Assembly (NCBI GenBank): GCA_964402785.1
Contig: CAYODQ010000003.1
Span: 9,034-73,033 of the forward strand
Direction: 5' to 3'
Length of the DNA stretch: 64,000 bases
Origin: an uncultured Planctomycetia bacterium
GTDB taxonomy: Bacteria > Omnitrophota > Gorgyraeia > 2-02-FULL-51-18
This document shows positions 6,010 to 25,072 of the stretch, piece by piece. The position numbers and the translations under genes were made by a program. A model generated the notes under the pieces. That model saw only the letters and a program-made list of their open reading frames with translations, had not been told where the DNA came from and searched no databases. The number at the start of each line of letters is the position of its first letter. Within the stretch, counting starts at the first letter, position 1.

Positions 6010-7029
6010 TTAAATAAATGTTCGTGTGTGTTCGACGATGTTTTGCATCACGGACACTGTTTCAACTGGATAGGCACCGATGGCGGTTTCTCCGGAGAGC
6101 ATCACAAAATCGGTGCCGTCCAGCACGGCATTAGCGACATCCGAAGCTTCCGCGCGCGTGGGCCTGGGGTTCTCGGTCATACTCTCCAGCATCTGGGTGG
6201 CGGTGATCACAAATTTGCCGGCGCGATTCGAAGCGTGGATAAGTTTTTTCTGGATCATGGGCACTTCCCATATCGGAAGGCATACACCCATATCGCCCCG
6301 CGCGACCATGATGCCATCGGATACTTTTAAGATCCCTTTGAAATTTTGGATGCCTTCTTGATTTTCAATTTTGGACACGATCTTGACTCGCGGAAGCCGG
6401 CGATGGAGTTTTTCTTTGAGATGAAGCACATCCTCAGCGCTTCGCACAAATGACTGGGCCATCCAATCCACCCGGTGACGAATTCCAAATTCGATATCCG
6501 CTTCATCTTTATCCGTGAGCCCATCAAATATAAGCTTGAGATCCGGGATATGGACGCCTTTGCGCTCTTTGAGGAGCCCCGGCACCACAACTTGGACAAT
6601 GAGCGATCCTCGCTGCGAGGCGGTTACCTTAAAAACAAGATTTCCATCATCAATAAAAACTTGGCTGCCGATCCTGATCTCTTTGAAGCTGCCCTCATAA
6701 TCCAGCGGAATCGCATGAGGATGATTTTTTATTTCTAACTCGTGGCAAAACACCAGTTTTTGCCGCTTATGAAGGTGGATTGGTTTACCTTTTGGTAAGT
6801 GCCCGACACGAATCCGAAACCCTTCCAAATCCTGTAGAATACGGATATCTTTTTTGGTTTCACGGGAAGCTTGCCGAATGCGCTGAATAAGCCTAGAGTG
6901 AAAAGCGTGTGACCCATGCGAAAAATTAAGCCTCGCCACAGTCATGCCCGATCGCATGAGTTTTTTCAGAACCGACACGGAACTCGTGGCCGGACCTATG
7001 GTGCAGATGATACCGACTTGTCGGGACAT
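6010..7029 (-). CDS. pyk: Pyruvate kinase (A+B domains only; no C-terminal regulatory domain)
   Basis: [15 protein letters not shown]...LNFSHGSH...MVARGDMGV...TATQMLESM motifs. Only 339 aa. Confidence 0.8.
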
Positions 7030-13436: not shown

Positions 13437-13793
13437 GTGTTTACGCTGATCGCGTACAAGGATCGCGAAGGCCGATCCCCGTTGAGAGAATATACCGAGG
13501 ATCTGCCTCGCAACCAGAAAGCCAAAATATTGGCTTATCTGGCGGTGCTCGAAGAATTTGGTTTCAGCCTTAGAAGACCCATGGCGGATAGCTTGGGAAG
13601 CAAACTTGGGCTATATGAATTAAGGCCAGGTAGGCACAGGATCCTGTATTTCTTTTATGATAGGGATACGATCGTTTTATTGCATGCATTTTTAAAACAA
13701 ACAGATGCCATTCCGCAGAGGGAACTGATTATCGCCTTGAATAGGAAGGCGGATTATTTAAAAAGAAAGGTCTCGCATGAAATCGACTGGTGA
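13437..13793 (+). CDS. Type II toxin, RelE/HigB superfamily (phage Gp49-like/DUF891)
   Basis: 118 aa, FTLIAYKDREGRSPLREYTEDLP...LGSKLGLYELRPGRHRILYFFYDRDTIVLLHAF, followed immediately by an XRE antitoxin. The listed start is a GTG. Confidence 0.7.
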   Translation: MFTLIAYKDREGRSPLREYTEDLPRNQKAKILAYLAVLEEFGFSLRRPMADSLGSKLGLYELRPGRHRILYFFYDRDTIVLLHAFLKQTDAIPQRELIIALNRKADYLKRKVSHEIDW

Positions 13794-14097
13794 AAGCTAC
13801 GAGGAGTTTAGAAAAAAAATAATAGGCGGGGACAAAAAATTGGAGGCTCAGATTCAGCTTGAGACCTCTAAACTTGAACTTTTGATGCATCTCGTCGAGT
13901 ACCGAGAAAAAAAAGGCCTGACTCAGAAGCAGTTGGCGGACAAGCTCGGAGTTAAACAACAGGTCGTCGCCCGGATCGAGAATGGCTCCAACATCACGCT
14001 TGAGACGCTCATCAAATTCCTCGCCGTGCTGGGTATCGTATTTAAAGTCGAAGCTGTCCCCCGTAAGCGCCGCGAGCAAATTTTGCAGTTTGTTTGA
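13777..14097 (+). CDS. XRE-family HTH antitoxin (HigA-like)
   Basis: HTH LTQKQLADKLGVKQQVVARIENG. It overlaps the end of the upstream toxin gene, in hig order. Confidence 0.7.
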   Translation: MKSTGESYEEFRKKIIGGDKKLEAQIQLETSKLELLMHLVEYREKKGLTQKQLADKLGVKQQVVARIENGSNITLETLIKFLAVLGIVFKVEAVPRKRREQILQFV

Positions 14098-14146
14098 TCC
14101 CTCTGCATCTTGAATTATAATGTACATTAATGTACACTTATGTACA
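14094..14146 (+). promoter_or_regulatory. Promoter (-35 ttgatc, 16-bp spacer, -10 tataat) with three TGTACA operator hexamers at 10-bp phasing
   Basis: The tataat lies at 14116..14121. TGTACA lies at 14121, 14131 and 14141, directly upstream of the Phd/YefM-VapC pair. Confidence 0.6.
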
Positions 14147-14158
14147 TAGGAGATATCT

Positions 14159-14389
14159 ATGACCAAGACGACTTTTACGGAACTGAGAAAACACGCGAAG
14201 TCATATTTTGATTCTGTGGAAAATGGCGAGACCATACAAGTCCTCCGGCACGGCAAAGTGATCGCGGAGATCGTGCCTCCCCATGAAAGCCGGGATCTTA
14301 AGCCTTGGAAAAAACCAGGCCTTAAACTGAGGCTTTCGGGGGTCTCGGGCAGTAAAATGATCATCAAAGAACGCGAGGATCGCTTTTGA
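14159..14389 (+). CDS. Phd/YefM-family antitoxin
   Basis: N-terminal ...FTELRKHAKSYFDSVENGETIQVLRHGKVIAEIVP is typical of Phd/YefM. It overlaps the downstream PIN gene by 4 nt. Confidence 0.75.
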   Translation: MTKTTFTELRKHAKSYFDSVENGETIQVLRHGKVIAEIVPPHESRDLKPWKKPGLKLRLSGVSGSKMIIKEREDRF

Positions 14390-14799
14390 AGTTTTATTTC
14401 GATTCATCGGCGCTGTTCAAAAGGTATGTTTTTGAAAAGGGCAGCGATGTTGTAGATAAGCTTTTTTTGGAAGCGGATTCTATCGCGGTGAGCGCCATAG
14501 CTTTACCTGAGATCATATCCACATTGTGTAGACTGCGCAGAGAAAGGAAGCTGAGTTCCGCGCAATACGCTCGGTGCAAGCAAGCGGTCATCGATGATTT
14601 TGCCGGGTTTGATATCTATCCTCTTACTCCCGAGATCATAAGATCTTCTATGGATATTTTGGAGGCTAGCGATCTGCGCTCCGCCGATGCTATCCATGTC
14701 GCCTGCGCCATCGAAGCCAGATCCGCTCGATTCATCTCGAGCGATGCTAGGCAGATCCAAACGGCCAAAGAATTGCATCTAAAAGTAGAGTCCGTATGA
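14386..14799 (+). CDS. vapC: VapC-type PIN-domain toxin
   Basis: PIN signature: D near the N-terminus (FDSSAL), an internal ...DAIHVACAIE... and ISSD. The start overlaps the antitoxin stop. Confidence 0.75.
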   Translation: MKFYFDSSALFKRYVFEKGSDVVDKLFLEADSIAVSAIALPEIISTLCRLRRERKLSSAQYARCKQAVIDDFAGFDIYPLTPEIIRSSMDILEASDLRSADAIHVACAIEARSARFISSDARQIQTAKELHLKVESV

Positions 14800-18438: not shown

Positions 18439-18577
18439 ATAAAAAGTATATATTAGTAATTAATAGTTTACAATTATTAGCATTTATTTCATTTAAACAC
18501 CCGATCGCCCTCGTGACCCATATCACATCGCCGTGGGTCATGATTTAGTACCATCAAATCACGGGGGGGTGATCGTA

Positions 18578-18736
18578 ATGCCTTACTTTATCCGCAAATC
18601 AAGAGGCCCCAGACCATATAAGATCTTCAAAACCAGCACAGGTGAGGTTGTGGGCTCGTCAGTGACGTTGAGGAACGCTCAAGCAAGTATACGCGCCCGA
18701 TACTGGGGCGAACACAGGAGGAAAAGCCATGGTTAA
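18578..18736 (+). CDS. Small basic protein (52 aa), translationally coupled to the Cys-rich peptide
   Basis: A G-rich RBS precedes the ATG at 18578 (MPYFIRKSRGPRPYKIF...). Its stop TAA overlaps the next ATG (ATGGTTAA). Its last codons encode the AGGAGG RBS of the next gene. Confidence 0.35.
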   Translation: MPYFIRKSRGPRPYKIFKTSTGEVVGSSVTLRNAQASIRARYWGEHRRKSHG

Positions 18737-18855
18737 AAAAGCGAAGAAAAAAGCGGTAAAAAAATCGCCAGCGAAATGCGGTTGCGGTAAGATATGCAAA
18801 TGCGGCAAGAATTGTAAATGTGGGCCTTCCTGTCCTTGTAAGCGGTGTCGTTGAC
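18729..18855 (+). CDS. 41-aa Lys-rich/Cys-rich peptide (metallothionein-like or RiPP-precursor-like), not in the ORF track
   Basis: Manual translation gives MVKKAKKKAVKKSPAKCGCGKICKCGKNCKCGPSCPCKRCR. An AGGAGG RBS lies 7 nt upstream. There are nine Cys in the last 25 residues. Confidence 0.6.
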
Positions 18856-18919
18856 CACATAGATCGCGACCTCAAAAAAATACTCTCTCATGCTATAATC
18901 GGGCATTCATGGAGGAAGC

Positions 18920-19156
18920 ATGAGCGAAGCATCGGATAAGCACGAGCAATTCCTTAAAAAAGTGAATTTGTGGGTGGCAGTTCTCGCGGGACTGACCACA
19001 CTTATCGTCGGCGCCTACAATGTCAAAAACATCTTCTTCAAAAAAGAGCCCGAGCCTGTAAAAGTCGTCCAAAAAGACTCCTCCAGCGCCATCCGCGAAG
19101 CCGTAGAGGAAGTCGGCGCATCGTGGATCAAGGAACTAGCGGCCAAAAATAAATAA
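18920..19156 (+). CDS. Small single-pass membrane protein
   Basis: Extended -10 (tgctataat) and RBS ggagga upstream. One TM helix (LWVAVLAGLTTLIVGAY). Confidence 0.5.
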   Translation: MSEASDKHEQFLKKVNLWVAVLAGLTTLIVGAYNVKNIFFKKEPEPVKVVQKDSSSAIREAVEEVGASWIKELAAKNK

Positions 19157-19166
19157 AAACCCGGGA

Positions 19167-19913
19167 GTGCATATGCAATTAGGGATGTTTCCTCCCGTGT
19201 ATCATACGATCTTTGAGTCTATCGCTTATTTCATTGGATTCAGATCTTTTTTAATGTTGCGAAAAAAAAGTGATCCGATCGAAGCCTCCCAAAGAAATTG
19301 GGTGACCGCAGGAGGCGTGCTGGGAGCGGCCATCGGCTCCAAACTGATCACCTGGCTCGATGACCCTTCTCTCTTTGTTCAAAATTTGTCTAATATTCAA
19401 ATGTTGCTCGCCGGCAAGGGGATCGTCGGAGCGCTCACCGGCGGCTGGCTGGGTGTGGAGATCACCAAAAAGCTCATCGGTTTGCGCGAAGCCACAGGCG
19501 ATCTTTTTGTGTTTCCGCTCATCATCGGTATTGTGATCGGAAGGATAGGTTGTTTTGTCACCGGATTCTATGATCACACCTACGGCACGCCGACACAGCT
19601 GCCTTGGGGATTTGATTTCGGTGATGGGATACTACGCCATCCGGCTCAACTCTACGAGATCCTATTTCTGGGCGGACTTTTTATTTTCATACGCGCTCGC
19701 ATGCGATCCGCCTACGTCCAAGGAGATATTTTTAGATTCTTCATGATCGGCTATTTGTCTTTTCGGTTCATGGTCGAGTTCATCAAACCTACGCCTCATA
19801 TTTATTGGGGGCTGGATACGGTACAGGTCATCGCACTCGTTTGCTTCTGGGTATGTCGCAGATCATTTCAACCCATGTTCACCTTTACGCCTCAAACCAA
19901 GAGAGCCATATGA
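19167..19913 (+). CDS. Lgt-like prolipoprotein diacylglyceryl transferase homologue (short, divergent)
   Basis: Lgt signature blocks GRIGCFVTG (cf. GRLGNFINGE), HPAQLYE (cf. HPSQLYE) and FRFMVEFIKP (cf. FRIIVEFFRQP). It is 248 aa against ~290 for the canonical enzyme. Confidence 0.7.
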   Translation: MHMQLGMFPPVYHTIFESIAYFIGFRSFLMLRKKSDPIEASQRNWVTAGGVLGAAIGSKLITWLDDPSLFVQNLSNIQMLLAGKGIVGALTGGWLGVEITKKLIGLREATGDLFVFPLIIGIVIGRIGCFVTGFYDHTYGTPTQLPWGFDFGDGILRHPAQLYEILFLGGLFIFIRARMRSAYVQGDIFRFFMIGYLSFRFMVEFIKPTPHIYWGLDTVQVIALVCFWVCRRSFQPMFTFTPQTKRAI

Positions 19914-21301
19914 ACATCGCCGAGAGGCCTTATATTTTTTACGAGCTCACCAACAGCCTCTGCAGCCGCTGCCTCAAAAAAGTCGAGGCTAAGATCATCT
20001 TTGAGAACGAAAACGTCTATCTTCTTAAGAACTGTTTGGAACACAAGATCGAGAAAGTGCTCATCTCGACCGACATTGAATATTACAAGAAATGCCGCGC
20101 GTTCTTGAAGCCCGCCCAGCTGCCCAAGCGCTTCAACACCGCCACTGTGCATGGTTGTCCCTACGATTGTGGGCTGTGCCCCGATCACGAGCAGCATAGC
20201 TGCTTGACACTCATAGAGGTCACGGACCGCTGTAATCTCGAGTGCCCTATTTGCTACGCGGGCTCGTCTCCCTCAAGCGGCCGTCATCGGACACTGGATG
20301 AGATCGAATTCATGATGGATGAGCTTGTGAAAAACGAAGGCGAGCCGGATATTGTTCAGCTGAGCGGCGGTGAGCCGACTATCCATCCTCAATTTTTTGA
20401 GATCATGGATCTTGCAAAGCGAAAGCCCATCCGGCATCTCATGGTCAACTCCAATGGCGTGAAGATCTCCCAAGATCGCGAGTTCTGTAAAAAACTGGCT
20501 GGTTATATGCCGGGATTTGAAGTGTATCTTCAATTCGATAGTTTAGAGAAAAATCCTCTCGAAGAAATACGCGGGCTGGATCTGCGCTCGGTGCGGCTCA
20601 AAGCACTTGAACATCTGAATGAATTCAATATTTCTACCAATTTGGTGGTCACCGTCAAAAAAGGCCTCAATGACAAGGAGATCGGGAAGCTGATCGAGTT
20701 CGCGCTCAAACAGCGCTGTGTGCGCGGCATCACTTTTCAGCCCATACAGGCGGCCGGGCGGCTCGAGCAATTTGACCCGGCCAAAGATCGGCTGACCCTG
20801 GCGGAGGTGCGCCAGCAAATATTAAAACAATCTAAGGTTTTTAAACCCGAAGACATCATCCCCGTCCCCTGTCATCCCGATTGTATCGCCATGGCGTACG
20901 CACTCAAGATGGACGGAAAAGTGATCCCGCTCACGGGACTTATGGATCCGCAGGTTCTGCTCAAAGATTACCGAAATACCATTCTTTACGAACAGCAACC
21001 CAATATCAAATCCAAGGTATTTAGTTTATTTTCTCTGAATCATTCACCCAAGTCGACATCGCATGCGGTGCATGATCTCTTGTGTTGCCTGCCCAAGGTC
21101 AGCACCGACCAGAACCTGTCATATGATAATATTTTTAGGCTGACGATCATGGAATTCCTGGATCCTTATAATTTTGACGTGCGCTCGGTCAAGCGTGCTT
21201 GTGTCCACATCGCGCATCCGGATGGCAGAATAATTCCATTCGACACTTATAATATTTTTTATCGCGACAACAAAATCAACGTGACTTCACTGGCCCAATA
21301 A
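19910..21301 (+). CDS. Radical SAM enzyme with extra N-terminal Cys clusters (Cx2C...CxxH; CPYDCGLC; then CNLECPIC)
   Basis: Canonical CX3CX2C (CNLECPIC) plus GGEP. A second upstream CX3CX2C (CPYDCGLCPDH). A zinc-ribbon-like CSRC...NCLEH. C-terminal Cys (PCHPDC, LLCC). Its start ATG overlaps the Lgt stop (ATGA). Confidence 0.75.
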   Translation: MNIAERPYIFYELTNSLCSRCLKKVEAKIIFENENVYLLKNCLEHKIEKVLISTDIEYYKKCRAFLKPAQLPKRFNTATVHGCPYDCGLCPDHEQHSCLTLIEVTDRCNLECPICYAGSSPSSGRHRTLDEIEFMMDELVKNEGEPDIVQLSGGEPTIHPQFFEIMDLAKRKPIRHLMVNSNGVKISQDREFCKKLAGYMPGFEVYLQFDSLEKNPLEEIRGLDLRSVRLKALEHLNEFNISTNLVVTVKKGLNDKEIGKLIEFALKQRCVRGITFQPIQAAGRLEQFDPAKDRLTLAEVRQQILKQSKVFKPEDIIPVPCHPDCIAMAYALKMDGKVIPLTGLMDPQVLLKDYRNTILYEQQPNIKSKVFSLFSLNHSPKSTSHAVHDLLCCLPKVSTDQNLSYDNIFRLTIMEFLDPYNFDVRSVKRACVHIAHPDGRIIPFDTYNIFYRDNKINVTSLAQ

Positions 21302-21774: not shown

Positions 21775-22044
21775 GTGCATAAAATATTGCGCATCGTATT
21801 TCTGGTGGTGGCCTTATGCGCTTGTGTCCAGTCCCTGGGCATTGATGAGGCCTTTTGCTGTGATTCTGCCGGCGAAAGCGGCTGCCGAGATTGCGCCGCC
21901 TGTTCTCATCATCCATTGGCAGCATCAGAGATGTCCGGGGTAACACCAGAAGCTATTTCCGGCGATCGTCTTTTTGCGAAGTATTCTTTTCAGTATTCAC
22001 AATTTGTCCCTCTGCAGATCCTCCGCCCTCCGATTCACGCCTAA
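21775..22044 (+). CDS. Small secreted Cys-rich protein (possible metal-binding)
   Basis: GTG start with a GGAGG RBS, a signal-peptide-like N-terminus, and a CCDSAGESGCRDCAACSHH cluster. Sits upstream of the OMP-znuA-znuB genes. Confidence 0.35.
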   Translation: MHKILRIVFLVVALCACVQSLGIDEAFCCDSAGESGCRDCAACSHHPLAASEMSGVTPEAISGDRLFAKYSFQYSQFVPLQILRPPIHA

Positions 22045-22095: not shown

Positions 22096-23273
22096 TGAAA
22101 CTGTTGTTTATTGGGCTGATGCTATTACTTGGGACGTCGTCACCAGCGAAAGCCGAGCCGGATCTGGCATCCCAAGTGGAAGATCTAAAAAAGATCGTCT
22201 CGGAGCTGCAACAAACAGTCGTGCGACAGCAAACCGAGATCGATGCCCTCAAGTCGAAGCAACCTGCCATCGAGCCTGTCGCGGCAACTCCATCAGCCGC
22301 GGTGGGGCCGCCAGGATCCGCCACTCGTGGGCGCTGGAATCCAGACATTGGTGTCATTGCCGACACGGTGCTCAAGTTGGATAGCGCCAAAACCGACACA
22401 GGTGGATCGGATCGTATCAGTGTCCGTGAACTGGAGCTGGTGATGGGCAGCGCTGTGGATCCGTATTCGCGCTTTGATGCGAGTATCGGCTTCACGGATC
22501 TGGAGGAGGTTGAGTTGTCTGAAGCGTATCTTACGCGGTACGGCTTGCCGCTGGGAGCTACGGCGCGTATCGGGCGATTTAATCTTAAGGCCGGAAAATC
22601 ACTGGCTGCACACCGGGATATCATCGAAACTGTGGACTATCCACTCGTGATCCGGCGCTATTTTGGCGAAGATGGTTTGCATAAAACCGGCCTCGATCTG
22701 ACGGCGCCTCTGGATCTGCCTGTAGACTCTGCACACGAGATCGTTGTGGGTGTCACCGAAGGCGGCAGCGGTGAAGGCGGCCTCGCGTTCGGAGATACCC
22801 GCAGACGACCCACGTTTTACAGTCATCTGCGGAATTTCTGGGATGTGAATGATGTGACCACTTTTGAGCTGGGAGCTACCCATATGGCGGGCTCGGAGGA
22901 TGCGGATAGCGCCTTTGAAACCAACATCGGAGGGCTGGACGGGACATTTCTTTATTTGTATGGCCCGGATCAGCGGCTCAAACTTCAAAGCGAGTTGTTT
23001 TATTTGAACAATGACGAAGCGCCCGATGAAACGCTGTGGGGAATGTACACGATAGCCGATGTGCGTTTTCACAAGCAGTGGTCCACTGGTTTTCGGTATG
23101 ACCATGTCGATGACGACAATGGTTACACCGGATACGTGACCTTTCACCAGACGGAATTTGCTCGATGGCGCCTTCAGGCGACCCACACCGATATTGCAGA
23201 CGGAGAAGATGATAACCAGATCATGGTTCAAGGCATCTTCTCCATCGGCGAACACAAACATAAACTAGCATGA
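22096..23273 (+). CDS. Outer-membrane beta-barrel protein with N-terminal coiled coil (porin-like)
   Basis: RBS aaggag. Signal peptide MKLLFIGLMLLLGTSSPAKA, then a coiled-coil segment and alternating beta-strand patterns. The start was chosen at 22096, not the ORF-track extension at 21891. Confidence 0.6.
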
Positions 23274-24256
23274 GGAAAAAAATGAAAAATACGATCCGAT
23301 TATTGCTGATCCTGGGTATCTTGTGCAGCCCCGGCGAAACAGCTTATACACATGAAGGCCATGGACGTGAAGAAGTGCCGGCATACGAGGGACCCGTCCA
23401 AGCCATCAGTGGAAGAAAATTAAAAATCGTCGCCACGACCACGACATTTGCCAGCCTCGTACGAGCTATCGGCGGAGATGCGGTGGAAGTCAAAGCGATT
23501 TCACTTCCGAAATTCAACACGCATTTCTTTCAGCCAAAATTCAGTGATGTGCGGAATGTCCAAAAAGCGGATCTTTTTGTGCAAGCCGGACTGGATCATG
23601 AGCTATGGACAGAAGCCATCCTGGAAGCCGCCGGAAAACCCGATCTTTTCCGCGGAGCCGAGGGCAATATCCCGATGTCGGACGGGATCAAGCTTCTGGA
23701 TGTGCCGACAGGCCCTCTCTCGAGAGCCGAAGGTGATGTGCATATTTTTGGCAATCCACATATTTGGATGAGCCCTGAAAATGCGCGCATTATGGCGCTT
23801 AATTTGCTGGAGCGGCTCAAAAAACACAACCCCGAAAATGCGGCCTTGTATGAAGCCAATGCAAAAGCGTTTCTTGCTGAGCTGGATCAAAAAATTCCCA
23901 TGTGGAAACAAAAGGCAGCTGGCACCAGCGGTAAAGAAGTGGTTTCCTATCACAAAGATATCGCATACTTTGCGGATTTTCTCGGGATCAAGGCGCTGCG
24001 TTTTTATGAGCCCAAGCCCGGGATACCGCCCAGCCCGAAAGAGCTGATCTCGCTGGAAAAATACATCAAAGAAAATAGTATTAAAGCCTTGGTGCAGCCG
24101 GTTTATTACTCGCGCGAAGCCACGGATGCGCTAGCCAAACGGGCGGGCGCCAAAGTGTATATCATCTGTCAAAATGCCGGGGAGATCCCGGGAACGGATG
24201 ACTACATCAGTTTATTCGACTACAACGTAAACACTATCAGCGAGGCCTTGAAATAA
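23270..24256 (+). CDS. znuA: Metal (Zn/Mn) ABC transporter substrate-binding protein, ZnuA/TroA family
   Basis: Cluster-9 SBP features (HIWMSPENA, YHKDIAYFADFLGI) and a signal peptide. Confidence 0.8.
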   Translation: MRKKMKNTIRLLLILGILCSPGETAYTHEGHGREEVPAYEGPVQAISGRKLKIVATTTTFASLVRAIGGDAVEVKAISLPKFNTHFFQPKFSDVRNVQKADLFVQAGLDHELWTEAILEAAGKPDLFRGAEGNIPMSDGIKLLDVPTGPLSRAEGDVHIFGNPHIWMSPENARIMALNLLERLKKHNPENAALYEANAKAFLAELDQKIPMWKQKAAGTSGKEVVSYHKDIAYFADFLGIKALRFYEPKPGIPPSPKELISLEKYIKENSIKALVQPVYYSREATDALAKRAGAKVYIICQNAGEIPGTDDYISLFDYNVNTISEALK

Positions 24257-25072
24257 ATGACCGACTTTATCCAATTTATGATGTATCCGTTTTTGGCTTG
24301 TTTGATCTTGACCGGCATCCACACGTATCTGGGACAGCATGTGATCGAAAGACAGGTTATCTTCGTTGACCTGTCGCTTGCTCAAATCGCAGCCCTCGGG
24401 GCGAGCATTGCGCTGGTTCTGGGGCATGAGCTCAGCAGTCCTTTGTCATACTGGCTTTCTTTGGCCTTTACCATCATCGGTGCGCTGGTTTTCGCCTTTA
24501 GTCGATTCAAGAAACAGCTCATCCCGCAGGAAGCTGTGATCGGTGCGTCTTACGCAGTATCTGCGGCTTTGCTGATCCTGGTCTTAAGCCTTGCAGACGA
24601 GGGTGACGAGCATATTCGTGAAGCGCTGATCGGAAAACTACTGTTGGTCACGGACATGGAAGTATTGAAAATGTTTTTGATCTATGCCGCTATCGGTTTA
24701 TTTCACTATATTTTTCGGAAGAAATTCTTTCTGATATCCAAAGATCATGAAGAAGCCTCCAAGCACCTTAACGTGCGTCTGTGGGATTTTTTGTTCTACG
24801 TTTCCTTTGGCATCGTGGTCACAAGCTCGGTGAAAGTAGCTGGCGTCTTGTTGGTTTTTTCGTTTTTGGTGATCCCGGCATCCTGCTCGCTTATTTTTGC
24901 CCGCACGATCAAATCGCGGCTCATCGTCGGATGGGCGATCGGATTCTTGGCGAGTGCGGCTGGTATGGCGGCTTCGTACGTGTGGGATTTACCAACAGCT
25001 CCCACGGTCATATGTCTTCTGGGAGCGGTATTGTACGGTTCGATCTTTCTTAAACGCGGACATTCTCAATAA
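24257..25072 (+). CDS. znuB: Metal ABC transporter permease, ZnuB family
   Basis: ABC-3 family 8-TM pattern. No ATPase gene follows. Confidence 0.75.
   Translation: MTDFIQFMMYPFLACLILTGIHTYLGQHVIERQVIFVDLSLAQIAALGASIALVLGHELSSPLSYWLSLAFTIIGALVFAFSRFKKQLIPQEAVIGASYAVSAALLILVLSLADEGDEHIREALIGKLLLVTDMEVLKMFLIYAAIGLFHYIFRKKFFLISKDHEEASKHLNVRLWDFLFYVSFGIVVTSSVKVAGVLLVFSFLVIPASCSLIFARTIKSRLIVGWAIGFLASAAGMAASYVWDLPTAPTVICLLGAVLYGSIFLKRGHSQ

What the first reader, a model, noticed from the sequence alone, without database searches (positions are those of the whole stretch)
18578..18855. Hidden two-gene micro-operon: a 52-aa basic protein coupled to a 41-aa Lys-rich/Cys-rich peptide
Below the 60-aa ORF cutoff, the ATG at 18729 has a perfect AGGAGG RBS and encodes MVKKAKKKAVKKSPAKCGCGKICKCGKNCKCGPSCPCKRCR, with nine Cys in CxC/CKCG repeats. 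It overlaps (ATGGTTAA) the stop of an upstream small ORF whose last codons form that RBS. The CxC pattern is metallothionein-like. Alternatively, a Lys-rich leader plus Cys-rich core directly upstream of a radical SAM gene is the layout of a RiPP precursor. An inverted repeat TGACCCA-n15-TGGGTCA at 18509..18537 sits in the promoter region.
Basis: seen in the sequence. Interest (0 to 1): 0.65.

Follow-up and report, generated by a model that had tools for sequence, protein, structure and literature searches.

The report
Unannotated phage-type small protein plus Cys-rich peptide
Two overlapping, unannotated mini-genes are really there: the first belongs to a large uncharacterised family of phage small proteins, and the second is an orphan, very basic nine-cysteine peptide that probably binds metal and works with the first, not as a precursor for the nearby radical SAM enzyme.

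Summary
Both ORFs, the AGGAGG site and the ATGGTTAA overlap are exactly as described. An identical 1365-nt metagenome contig (L461) shows the same junction, and its gene caller missed both ORFs.

**p52** is a real gene. It belongs to an unnamed family of at least 246 proteins (~49 aa). On viral contigs it sits next to connector or terminase genes. It folds confidently as three strands plus a helix.

**p41** has no ortholog anywhere searched, but its start is well supported. AGGAGG-N5-9-ATG/GTG occurs 8 times in the window, and the other 7 all head long ORFs. Its core, [CxC]-x3-[CxC]-x3-[CxC]-x3-[CxC]-x2-C, resembles fungal copper-thionein boxes. It matches no curated metallothionein family. 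It is extremely basic (+15, no acidic residue).

Five p52 relatives are natural fusions to a Cys-rich C-terminal module, and ten have basic tails. p41 therefore looks like a detached module of that kind.

The RiPP reading fails:
- A 78-aa gene and an Lgt-like gene lie between p41 and the radical SAM gene.
- The enzyme is Tes/TrsS-type.
- It keeps its Lgt-like partner in 58 of 67 loci, and none of the 74 loci has a p41-like ORF.

Function is inferred, not shown. Interest is moderate.

The parts
18578..18736 (+). p52: a 52-aa basic protein (12 K+R, 2 D+E), member of an unnamed family of ~49-aa proteins found mainly on phage contigs
   Evidence: ORF. Four homologues at 60-80% identity. At least 246 proteins found with the family profile. 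Family HMM hits the window at E 2.2e-24. AlphaFold2 pLDDT 86.4, three strands plus a helix. Best codon-usage score of the six frames.
18563..18573 (+). G-rich Shine-Dalgarno-like stretch (GGGGGGGTGAT) ending 4 nt before the p52 ATG
   Evidence: Read directly from the sequence. Not tested further.
18716..18721 (+). AGGAGG: the Shine-Dalgarno site for p41, made of two consecutive AGG Arg codons of p52
   Evidence: All 7 other AGGAGG-N5-9-ATG/GTG sites in the window head ORFs of 138-731 aa. In-frame AGG-AGG occurs 0 times in 16,833 codons of the long ORFs. The site is unpaired in the predicted mRNA fold.
18722..18725 (+). AAAA run at the frame junction; removing one A would fuse p52 and p41 into a 91-aa protein
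   Evidence: In-silico deletion. The run is identical in contig L461.
18729..18854 (+). p41: a 41-aa peptide with a Lys-rich N-terminal half (residues 1-16) and a 9-Cys CxC core (residues 17-40); 15 K+R, no D/E, no aromatic residue, no His
   Evidence: No ortholog found. Analogous peptides exist in metagenome and viral contigs.
18731..18764 (+). 12-nt periodic segment (2.8 copies, 72% matches) encoding the KKAx-type basic stretch
   Evidence: Tandem Repeats Finder and direct repeat D1.
18777..18851 (+). Cys core built from 18-nt units CGCGKI / CKCGKN / CKCGPS / CPCKRC; pattern [CxC]-x3-[CxC]-x3-[CxC]-x3-[CxC]-x2-C
   Evidence: identity between units is 0.56, 0.47 and 0.31 at codon positions 1, 2 and 3, and Cys and Gly codons vary synonymously. 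TRF reports an 18-nt period, 2.1 copies, 80% matches.
18511..18543 (.). Inverted repeat TCGTGACCCA-N13-TGGGTCATGA in the 139-nt divergent intergenic region; a possible operator
Evidence: arms 10 nt, 90% complementary. Function untested.
18891..18899 (+). TGCTATAAT, an extended -10-like element between p41 and p78; marks the probable 3' boundary of the p52-p41 unit
   Evidence: Read from the sequence. The consensus scan did not report it because no -35 hexamer fits. No terminator-like site and no unusually stable structure lie between p41 and p78.

Best explanation
This is a real, unannotated two-cistron cassette of phage ancestry sitting in a bacterial chromosome.

p52 is a small basic protein with a three-strand-plus-helix fold. 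Its family normally occurs in phage head and packaging gene clusters.

p41 starts at its own strong Shine-Dalgarno site, which is built from p52's last Arg codons, and its start overlaps p52's stop. The two are therefore made from one mRNA in linked amounts.

p41 is a lineage-specific peptide that grew by internal duplication of a 12-nt unit (the Lys-rich half) and an 18-nt unit (the CxCG half). Its nine cysteines most likely form a metal-thiolate cluster. By analogy with 9-Cys and 7-Cys metallothionein units this would hold about 3 Zn(II)/Cd(II) or about 5-6 Cu(I). Its polycationic N-terminal half most likely binds a polyanion such as nucleic acid.

Together the pair reproduces, in split form, the 'core + basic linker + Cys-rich metal module' layout seen fused in some family members. 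p41 therefore most likely acts as a detached accessory module of p52, not as a bulk metal-detoxifying metallothionein and not as a RiPP precursor.

- Shown: the ORFs, the start signal, the overlap, p52 family membership, the fold, and the existence of fusions.
- Inferred: expression, metal binding, polyanion binding, and the p52-p41 partnership.
For: **Sequence facts**
- ORFs, RBS and overlap are as described.
- The same junction occurs in an identical, SPAdes-named contig that is probably short-read.

**p41 start**
- All 7 other AGGAGG-N5-9-ATG/GTG sites in the window head long ORFs.
- The site is unstructured in the predicted mRNA fold.

**p52 family**
- At least 246 members, median length 49 aa among the 120 listed.
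- 17 viral loci.
- In L449 a connector-type gene (phrog_332) lies directly upstream. In L444 the terminase large subunit lies directly downstream. In L005 a terminase lies about 4 kb away.
- Confident fold whose only neighbours are uncharacterised phage proteins.

**Link between the p52 domain and Cys-rich or basic modules**
- 5 of 120 listed members are 92-96 aa fusions to a 6-Cys C-terminal module.
- 10 of 117 have tails of at least 8 aa that are at least 40% K/R.

**p41 as a selected peptide**
- Regular CxC spacing.
- Synonymous variation at Cys and Gly codons between repeat units.

**Analogous short genes elsewhere**
- A 43-aa Lys-rich + CxCG peptide lies beside a DsbD_2-cupredoxin membrane protein, a DUF134 protein and a thioredoxin-like ORF.
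- A 27-30 aa CxCG peptide is conserved in 11 viral contigs, 10 of them with a 4-6 nt SD core.

**Cys pattern**
- Close to the fungal 7-Cys copper-thionein box (PMC4755600).
Against: - No ortholog of p41 exists in any collection searched, so conservation cannot be tested.
- None of the p52 homologue loci examined (L001-L008, L441-L460) has a CxC ORF downstream. No CxCG locus has a p52 homologue. The pairing is therefore unique to this window.
- The fused Cys module in relatives (CECIKCG...CPKCGG) has a different Cys pattern from p41. The parallel is architectural, not homologous.
- p41's codon-usage score only marginally favours its own frame.
- There is no expression or metal-binding data.
- The window's gene neighbourhood is chromosomal, with no other phage genes identified.
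Confidence: 0.45

Rival explanations
1. p41 is a stand-alone bacterial metallothionein that buffers or detoxifies Zn, Cu or Cd. Its linkage to p52 is incidental.
For: - 9 Cys arranged as CxC motifs, no aromatic residue and no His.
- The spacing is close to the fungal copper-thionein box (PMC4755600).
- The only credible hit in 1.84 billion representatives (P0006) carries two copies of CxCx3CxCGx2CKCGPxCxCx2C.
- An analogous 43-aa peptide lies beside a DsbD_2-cupredoxin protein and a thioredoxin-like ORF.
- A ZnuA-type binding protein and permease lie 4.5 kb downstream in the window.
Against: - No curated metallothionein family is matched even at E <= 10.
- No solved structure is matched by sequence.
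- The +15 net charge with no acidic residue is unlike the other CxCG peptides found here.
- No metal sensor or heavy-metal efflux gene is adjacent. The upstream P-type ATPase is Ca-type.
- The gene is translationally tied to a phage-family protein.
Confidence: 0.2
2. p52 and p41 are one gene. Either a +1 ribosomal frameshift at AGG-AGG-AAA-A makes a ~91-aa fusion protein, or an ancestral fusion gene has been broken by a 1-nt insertion and p41 is a decaying remnant.
For: - The p41 frame is open for 19 codons upstream of its ATG, and deleting one A gives a clean 91-aa fusion.
- Natural 92-96 aa fusions of the family exist.
- AGG is the rarest Arg codon, and in-frame AGG-AGG occurs nowhere else in 16,833 codons.
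- From memory, not checked here: tandem AGG codons and an upstream SD-like sequence are known to promote +1 shifts in E. coli.
Against: - p52 ends at the family's usual length: 52 aa against a median of 49.
- p41 has its own ATG at ideal spacing from AGGAGG.
- No stimulatory RNA structure is predicted (z = -0.19).
- The junction is identical in a second contig, so a homopolymer read error is unlikely.
- No sign of frameshift errors was seen elsewhere in the window.
Confidence: 0.12
3. p41 is not a functional gene. It is a chance or very recent ORF created by small tandem duplications downstream of a stray phage gene.
For: - No ortholog exists anywhere.
- The sequence is built from 12-nt and 18-nt periodic DNA.
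- Codon-usage discrimination is weak.
- The gene caller on L461 did not call it.
Against: - The start signal is perfectly predictive in this window.
- The repeat units have diverged (80% and 72% matches) yet keep every Cys and most Gly, through synonymous changes.
- Similar short CxCG ORFs are demonstrably conserved genes in phages.
Confidence: 0.13
4. p41 is a RiPP precursor (Lys-rich leader, Cys-rich core) matured by the downstream radical SAM enzyme.
For: - Same strand as the radical SAM gene and about 1 kb upstream of it.
- No terminator lies in between.
Against: - p78 and an Lgt-like gene intervene.
- A -10-like element precedes p78.
- The enzyme is Tes/TrsS/HMPTM-type, with no SPASM or RRE domain found.
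- It is paired with the Lgt-like gene in 58 of 67 loci across many phyla.
- None of the 74 loci has a p41-like ORF.
- p41 hits no NCBIfam precursor model.
Confidence: 0.02
5. p41 is a regulatory leader ORF. Ribosome stalling at its nine Cys codons would report cysteine supply and control the downstream p78, Lgt-like and radical SAM genes.
For: - Many Cys codons lie upstream of genes for a Cys- and Fe-S-rich enzyme.
- From memory: polycysteine uORFs act this way in mycobacteria. The related small-protein paper PMC4633059 surfaced but was not read here.
Against: - No terminator-like site and no unusually stable RNA structure lie between p41 and p78.
- The Cys codons are spaced, not consecutive.
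- The elaborate Lys-rich half has no role in such a mechanism.
- Related radical SAM loci lack any such leader ORF.
Confidence: 0.03

Closest known systems
Fungal family-8 copper-thioneins (Neurospora crassa / Agaricus bisporus MT, 26 aa, 7 Cys) and the 7-Cys boxes of Cryptococcus and Tremella MTs
   Same: - A short peptide in which nearly all Cys sit in CxC motifs.
- The C-terminal part of p41, [CxC]-x3-[CxC]-x2-C, is identical in spacing to the end of the fungal pattern X2-[CXC]-X5-[CXC]-X3-[CXC]-X2-C-X3.
- Gly, Lys and Pro lie between the cysteines.
- The sequence is built by tandem amplification of a small unit (PMC4755600).
   Different: - p41 has 9 Cys and uniform x3 spacers, not x5.
- It carries a 16-aa polylysine-type N-terminal half and a +15 net charge.
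- It lies on a bacterial chromosome next to a phage-type gene.
- No sequence-level family match was found.
- Metal binding is untested.
Bacterial metallothioneins SmtA/BmtA (Pfam PF02069). MymT is recalled from memory and was not tested.
   Same: Small, Cys-rich, cytoplasmic, presumed metal-thiolate proteins of bacteria.
   Different: - No Pfam or NCBIfam match was found.
- From general knowledge, the SmtA type has a zinc-finger-like fold with His ligands and no CxC periodicity.
Uncharacterised CxCG mini-proteins found here: the 43-aa peptide of L338/L382/L387, and the 27-30 aa MPKCECGPDCNCGDNC.. phage peptide
   Same: - CxCGxxCxCGxxCxC repeats in very short ORFs, most with SD sites.
- The 43-aa peptide also has a Lys-rich N-terminus followed by the Cys core.
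   Different: - These peptides contain many acidic residues and p41 has none.
- Their gene neighbourhoods differ from p41's.
- None is next to a p52 homologue.
- The similarity may be convergent.
p52-family fusion proteins P0077, P0090, P0099, P0101 and P0103 (92-96 aa)
   Same: A p52 core followed by a short linker and a Cys-rich C-terminal module. The length equals that of a hypothetical p52+p41 fusion, 91 aa.
   Different: - Their module has 6 Cys as CxCxxC...C...CxxC, which looks zinc-ribbon-like. It lacks CxC repeats.
- They are single ORFs, whereas the window has two overlapping ORFs in different frames.

Membership tests
Metallothionein (operational definition: small, Cys-rich, metal-thiolate clusters) | Low molecular weight, high Cys content with CxC/CxxC motifs, and few or no aromatic residues or His | tested here: met
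   41 aa; 9 Cys (22% overall, 9 of the 24 core residues 17-40); no F, W, Y or H.
Metallothionein (operational definition: small, Cys-rich, metal-thiolate clusters) | Binds metal ions in thiolate clusters with defined stoichiometry | not testable with these tools
   Needs the recombinant or synthetic peptide plus ESI-MS or UV/CD metal titration.
Curated metallothionein sequence families (Pfam Metallothio*, including PF02069 bacterial SmtA type; NCBIfam) | Significant match to a family profile | tested here: not met
   No Pfam family for p41 even at E <= 10. None at E <= 0.01 in Pfam or NCBIfam. No sequence match to any solved structure at E <= 10.
Fungal family-8 Cu-thionein (N. crassa type) | Cys pattern X2-[CXC]-X5-[CXC]-X3-[CXC]-X2-C-X3 with 7 Cys (PMC4755600) | tested here: not met
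   p41 is [CXC]-X3-[CXC]-X3-[CXC]-X3-[CXC]-X2-C-X with 9 Cys. Only the C-terminal half of the pattern coincides.
RiPP precursor with radical SAM maturase | Precursor gene adjacent to, and co-conserved with, a peptide-modifying radical SAM enzyme (SPASM/twitch and/or RRE domain) | tested here: not met
   Two genes intervene. The enzyme's best matches are TrsS and Tes, with an HMPTM zinc ribbon and no SPASM or RRE domain in Pfam. 74 related loci lack any p41-like ORF. The Lgt-like gene is the constant partner in 58 of 67 loci.
RiPP precursor with radical SAM maturase | Match to a known precursor family (SCIFF and similar models) | tested here: not met
   No NCBIfam hit for p41.
p52 small-protein family (unnamed; defined here by alignments A1 and A2) | Profile match and the conserved residues M1, P2, G10, K15, G26, S28 and S37, with a length of about 45-60 aa | tested here: met
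   The family HMM hits the window ORF at E 2.2e-24. Invariant columns are listed. Length is 52 aa against a median of 49.
p52 small-protein family (unnamed; defined here by alignments A1 and A2) | Location in a phage head/packaging module (next to connector/portal or terminase genes) | tested here: not met
   In the window the neighbours are a clan AA aspartic protease, a Ca-type P-type ATPase and the p78/Lgt-like/radical SAM genes. Another chromosomal-looking stray copy exists in L001.
Translationally coupled gene pair | Downstream start overlaps or abuts the upstream stop, with an SD inside the upstream gene | tested here: met
   ATGGTTAA overlap and AGGAGG 7 nt upstream. Dependence of p41 translation on p52 translation cannot be tested here, and the SD is not sequestered in the predicted fold.
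Programmed +1 ribosomal frameshift | Shift-prone site plus a stimulatory element, and a conserved trans-frame product | tested here: inconclusive
   AGG-AGG-AAA-A with an SD-like sequence is present, and the +1 frame is open. No stimulatory structure is predicted. No relative exists in which a trans-frame product could be checked.
Cys-responsive leader-peptide attenuator | Terminator/antiterminator or RBS-sequestering structure between the leader ORF and the regulated genes | tested here: not met
   No terminator-like site. The spacer fold is no better than shuffled sequence (z = 0.13).

The most novel reading that the evidence does not exclude
p41 and the CxCG mini-ORFs found on viral contigs represent an unrecognised class of phage-borne metal-thiolate mini-proteins. 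In the window, a polycationic version has been joined to a conserved virion-module small protein. The pair would form a metal-cluster-stabilised, nucleic-acid-binding complex, for example for genome condensation or for manipulating host metal or redox state, and it has been retained by a bacterial host.
Probability: 0.15. Interest if true: 0.7.

Novelty: new variant of a known kind. Interest (0 to 1): 0.45.

Why it matters
If p41 is expressed and binds metal, it would be a bacterial or phage-derived peptide with fungal-type CxC thionein chemistry. It falls outside every curated metallothionein family, and it is physically coupled to a member of a large, completely uncharacterised phage small-protein family.

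That would give two things:
- A first functional handle on the p52 family, which has at least 246 members, no name and no solved structure.
- A pointer to conserved CxCG mini-genes in phage genomes that gene callers and databases largely miss.

It also removes a tempting but wrong RiPP annotation from a widespread Lgt-like/Tes-like radical SAM gene pair.

Tried and rejected
**Searches for p41 relatives**
- The word-indexed search of 5.8 billion proteins found no candidates.
- Exhaustive phmmer against 1.84 billion representatives returned one low-complexity artefact (P0005) and one motif-level hit (P0006).
- A pure Cys-spacing DNA pattern on viral contigs returned almost only TGC/TGT microsatellites and was useless.
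- GenBank isolated phages have no p52 or p41 match.

**Synteny**
- The 74 radical SAM loci contain no p41, p52 or p78.
- Synteny with the closest locus, L009, starts only at the Lgt-like gene.
- The window's protease is not on record.
- p78 has no viral relatives.

**Function of p52**
- Pfam, NCBIfam and PHROGs gave nothing significant.
- PDB searches by sequence and by fold gave nothing.

**Other checks**
- I looked for an assembly frameshift in the short pyruvate kinase gene and found none.
- RNA folds of the junction and of the p41-p78 spacer are no better than shuffled sequence.
- Literature searches found no description of phage or bacterial CxCG mini-proteins.

**Readings rejected**
- RiPP precursor.
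- Cys-sensing attenuator.
- Homopolymer sequencing error as the cause of the frame offset.
Full report
**Observation**

The two ORFs are exactly as described.
- p52 runs from ATG 18578 to TAA 18734-18736.
- p41 runs from ATG 18729 to TGA 18852-18854 and encodes MVKKAKKKAVKKSPAKCGCGKICKCGKNCKCGPSCPCKRCR.
- AGGAGG at 18716-18721 is formed by Arg codons 47-48 of p52 and lies 7 nt before the p41 ATG.
- The p41 start overlaps the p52 stop (ATGGTTAA), and p41 is in the +1 frame relative to p52.

Three details of the finding are wrong.
- The inverted repeat is TGACCCA (18514-18520) and TGGGTCA (18534-18540) with 13 nt between, not n15 at 18509..18537.
- p41 is not directly upstream of the radical SAM gene. 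A 78-aa ORF (p78, 18920-19156) and an Lgt-like gene (19167-19913) lie between. Comparison with L009 puts the radical SAM start near 19910.
- The consensus scan found no sigma-70-like promoter on the + strand upstream of p52.

**Is it more than chance?**

AGGAGG followed 5-9 nt later by ATG or GTG occurs only 8 times in the 64-kb window on both strands. The other 7 all head ORFs of 138-731 aa. In this genome the motif is therefore an excellent predictor of real starts, even though only 19 of 47 long ORFs have any SD core of 4 nt or more.

In-frame AGG-AGG occurs nowhere in 16,833 codons of the long ORFs, and AGG is the rarest Arg codon at 10%.

No other stop-free segment in the window approaches 9 Cys in 25 residues.

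The Cys core consists of four 18-nt units: CGCGKI, CKCGKN, CKCGPS and CPCKRC. Identity between units is 0.56, 0.47 and 0.31 at codon positions 1, 2 and 3. Cys is spelled TGC four times and TGT five times, and Gly is spelled GGT, GGT, GGC and GGG. TRF sees only a diverged repeat of 2.1 copies at 80% matches. This fits an old internal duplication kept at the amino-acid level, but the sample is small.

Codon-usage scoring clearly favours the p52 frame and only marginally favours the p41 frame.

An identical 1365-nt contig from another assembly (L461, SPAdes-style name, coverage 2.4) carries the same sequence, including the AAAA run at the junction. The frame offset is therefore unlikely to be a homopolymer artefact. 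I cannot tell whether the window comes from the same sample. On that contig the gene caller called p78 and the Lgt-like gene but neither p52 nor p41, so both are truly unannotated.

**What p52 is**

p52 has four homologues at 60-80% identity. A profile built from them retrieves at least 246 proteins.
- The 120 listed have a median length of 49 aa.
- They have no Pfam domain, and the few sources that name them call them 'hypothetical protein'.

Seventeen IMG/VR loci carry a member. The gene typically follows a large gene of about 560-600 aa.
- In L449 that gene matches phrog_332, annotated as connector/head-tail adaptor, at E 2e-130.
- In L444 the gene directly downstream is the terminase large subunit.
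- In L005 a terminase gene lies about 4 kb away.
- The other flanking genes tested gave no PHROG match.

AlphaFold2 on the family alignment gives a confident model: pLDDT 86.4, strands at residues 3-7, 14-18 and 24-28, and a helix at 31-50.
- Its only structural neighbours are uncharacterised phage proteins. One is a domain inside a 1188-aa phage protein with 40% identity.
- Nothing in the PDB matches by fold or by sequence.
- GenBank isolated phages lack the family.

Stray copies in apparently chromosomal contexts exist. One is L001 in a 157-kb groundwater contig. The window is another: its neighbours are a clan AA aspartic protease, a Ca-type P-type ATPase and toxin-antitoxin-like ORFs.

**What p41 is**

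No ortholog was found:
- not in the indexed 5.8-billion-protein search;
- not among isolated phages;
- not in 74 genomic loci related through the radical SAM gene.

Exhaustive phmmer against 1.84 billion representatives gave one meaningful hit, P0006 (E 9e-4). It is a 356-aa short-chain dehydrogenase with two N-terminal copies of CxCx3CxCGx2CKCGPxCxCx2C.

p41 matches no curated metallothionein family even at E <= 10 and no solved structure by sequence.

Its Cys pattern, [CxC]-x3-[CxC]-x3-[CxC]-x3-[CxC]-x2-C, is close to the fungal copper-thionein box X2-[CXC]-X5-[CXC]-X3-[CXC]-X2-C-X3. Like those proteins, p41 looks built by tandem amplification (PMC4755600).

p41 has 15 Lys+Arg, no Asp or Glu, no aromatic residue and no His.

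**DNA-pattern scans**

Most hits were simple-sequence repeats, but genuine analogues emerged.
- A 43-aa peptide, MADKKVKKEEKKGCDCGKDCKCGKDCKCGEKCDCGKDCKCGCC, occurs in three metagenome contigs. It overlaps the start of a DUF134 gene and lies beside a DsbD_2-cupredoxin membrane protein and a thioredoxin-like ORF.
- A 27-30 aa peptide, MPKCECGPDCNCGDNC[EQ]C.DC[DE]CKKE.., is conserved with variation in 11 viral contigs. Ten of them have a 4-6 nt SD core of the TAGGAGG type. It holds a fixed position two genes upstream of a tail/virion structural protein.
- A 22-aa version follows a phage NrdA-NrdB pair.

Short CxCG-repeat ORFs are therefore a real, apparently undescribed class of phage and bacterial genes. 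None of these loci has a p52 homologue within the fetched flanks.

**The link between the two**

Five of the 120 listed p52 relatives (92-96 aa) are natural fusions. They consist of the p52 core, a linker of about 10 aa, and a 6-Cys module CECIKCG-x10-C-x5-CPKCGG. Ten of 117 have K/R-rich tails.

p41, a basic stretch followed by a Cys cluster, has the layout of these C-terminal extensions. Deleting one A from the AAAA run at 18722-18725 would give a 91-aa fusion of the same size. This is Rosetta-stone-type evidence that a Cys-rich metal module works with the p52 domain. The Cys patterns are not homologous, however, and the adjacency is so far unique to the window.

**How it most likely works**

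- *Shown:* two overlapping ORFs, an unstructured SD and AUG (z = -0.19), p52 family membership and the fold.
- *Inferred:* both products are made from one transcript with linked output. The nine thiolates of p41 hold a small metal cluster. By analogy with 9-Cys and 7-Cys metallothionein units this would be about 3 Zn/Cd or about 5-6 Cu(I). The polycationic half binds a polyanion, and p41 serves as a detached accessory module of p52.

**Rivals**

- Stand-alone metallothionein.
- A single gene read through a +1 frameshift at AGG-AGG-AAA-A, or a broken fusion gene.
- A non-functional recent ORF.
- A Cys-sensing leader peptide.
- A RiPP precursor.

**Why the RiPP reading fails**

- The radical SAM protein's best matches are TrsS (E 1e-95) and tetraether lipid synthase Tes (E 3e-87). 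It has an HMPTM zinc ribbon, and Pfam finds no SPASM or RRE domain.
- It overlaps the stop of the Lgt-like gene.
- That pairing holds in 58 of the 67 related loci with enough flank, across many phyla.
- None of the 74 related loci has a p41-like ORF.
- A TGCTATAAT element at 18891-18899 suggests that p78 and the genes after it have their own promoter. No terminator separates them from p41, though.

**Why the leader-peptide reading fails**

The leader-peptide idea lacks any terminator or stable structure in the spacer.

**Verdict**

The micro-operon and metallothionein-like readings are partly right. The RiPP reading is wrong.

The most informative new facts are the phage ancestry of p52, the fusion relatives of p52, and the existence of conserved CxCG mini-genes in phages.

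Function remains inferred. Interest is moderate (0.45), and I class it as a new variant of a known kind.

Noticed in passing
window 19167-21301; loci L009-L082: An Lgt-like gene (PF01790, far below the equivalog cut-offs) overlaps the start of a Tes/TrsS-like radical SAM gene carrying an HMPTM zinc ribbon. The pair is conserved in 58 of the 67 related loci with enough flank, across Obscuribacterales/Melainabacteria, Planctomycetota, Bacteroidota, Myxococcota, Paenibacillus and some archaea. This suggests a lipid-modifying two-enzyme unit of unknown product.
   Followed up: partly
L203, L206, L208, L210, L218, L223, L230, L266, L276, L296, L310 (viral contigs): A conserved 27-30 aa phage gene, MPKCECGPDCNCGDNC[EQ]C.DC[DE]CKKE.., in a fixed position after a 249-269 aa gene (phrog_12985 in L208) and two genes before a tail/virion structural protein. 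Ten of the 11 contigs have a 4-6 nt SD core of the TAGGAGG type. It appears undescribed.
   Followed up: partly
L237 and L252 (viral contigs): A 22-aa CxCG peptide (MSCGKEDCDCGLACQCGDDCQC) with an AGGAGG RBS directly follows a phage NrdA-NrdB ribonucleotide reductase pair. It may be a metal-handling accessory for a metalloenzyme.
   Followed up: partly
L387 4266-4397 (also L338, L382): A 43-aa Lys-rich + CxCG peptide overlaps the start of a DUF134 gene. It is divergent from a DsbD_2-cupredoxin membrane protein and lies near a thioredoxin-like ORF, on a low-GC (0.40) contig.
   Followed up: partly
window 21775-22044: An 89-aa ORF with a signal-peptide-like N-terminus and a Cys/His-rich stretch (CCDSAGESGCRDCAACSHH). 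It lies just upstream of a 460-aa ORF with no family match and a ZnuA-type binding protein plus permease (23270-25072). It may be part of a metal-uptake cluster.
   Followed up: no
window 13777-14799: Two small-gene pairs that look like toxin-antitoxin modules by eye: a 106-aa ORF, then a 76-aa ORF followed by a 137-aa ORF. They lie upstream of the Ca-type P-type ATPase. No family search was run on them.
   Followed up: no
window 6010-7029 (-): The pyruvate kinase ORF is only 339 aa and matches positions 2-337 of the 476-position model. No C-terminal domain is visible in any frame downstream, so it appears to be a naturally short form and not a frameshift.
   Followed up: partly
window 18884-18927: An 11-nt inverted repeat (91% complementary) spans the -10-like element and the RBS and start of p78. 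The predicted hairpin pairs the p78 start region, but its energy is no better than shuffled sequence.
   Followed up: partly
L385 / protein P0006: A 356-aa short-chain dehydrogenase with two N-terminal metallothionein-like modules (CxCx3CxCGx2CKCGPxCxCx2C), on a 1.3-kb soil metagenome contig. This is an unusual fusion of an enzyme with a metal-thiolate domain.
   Followed up: no
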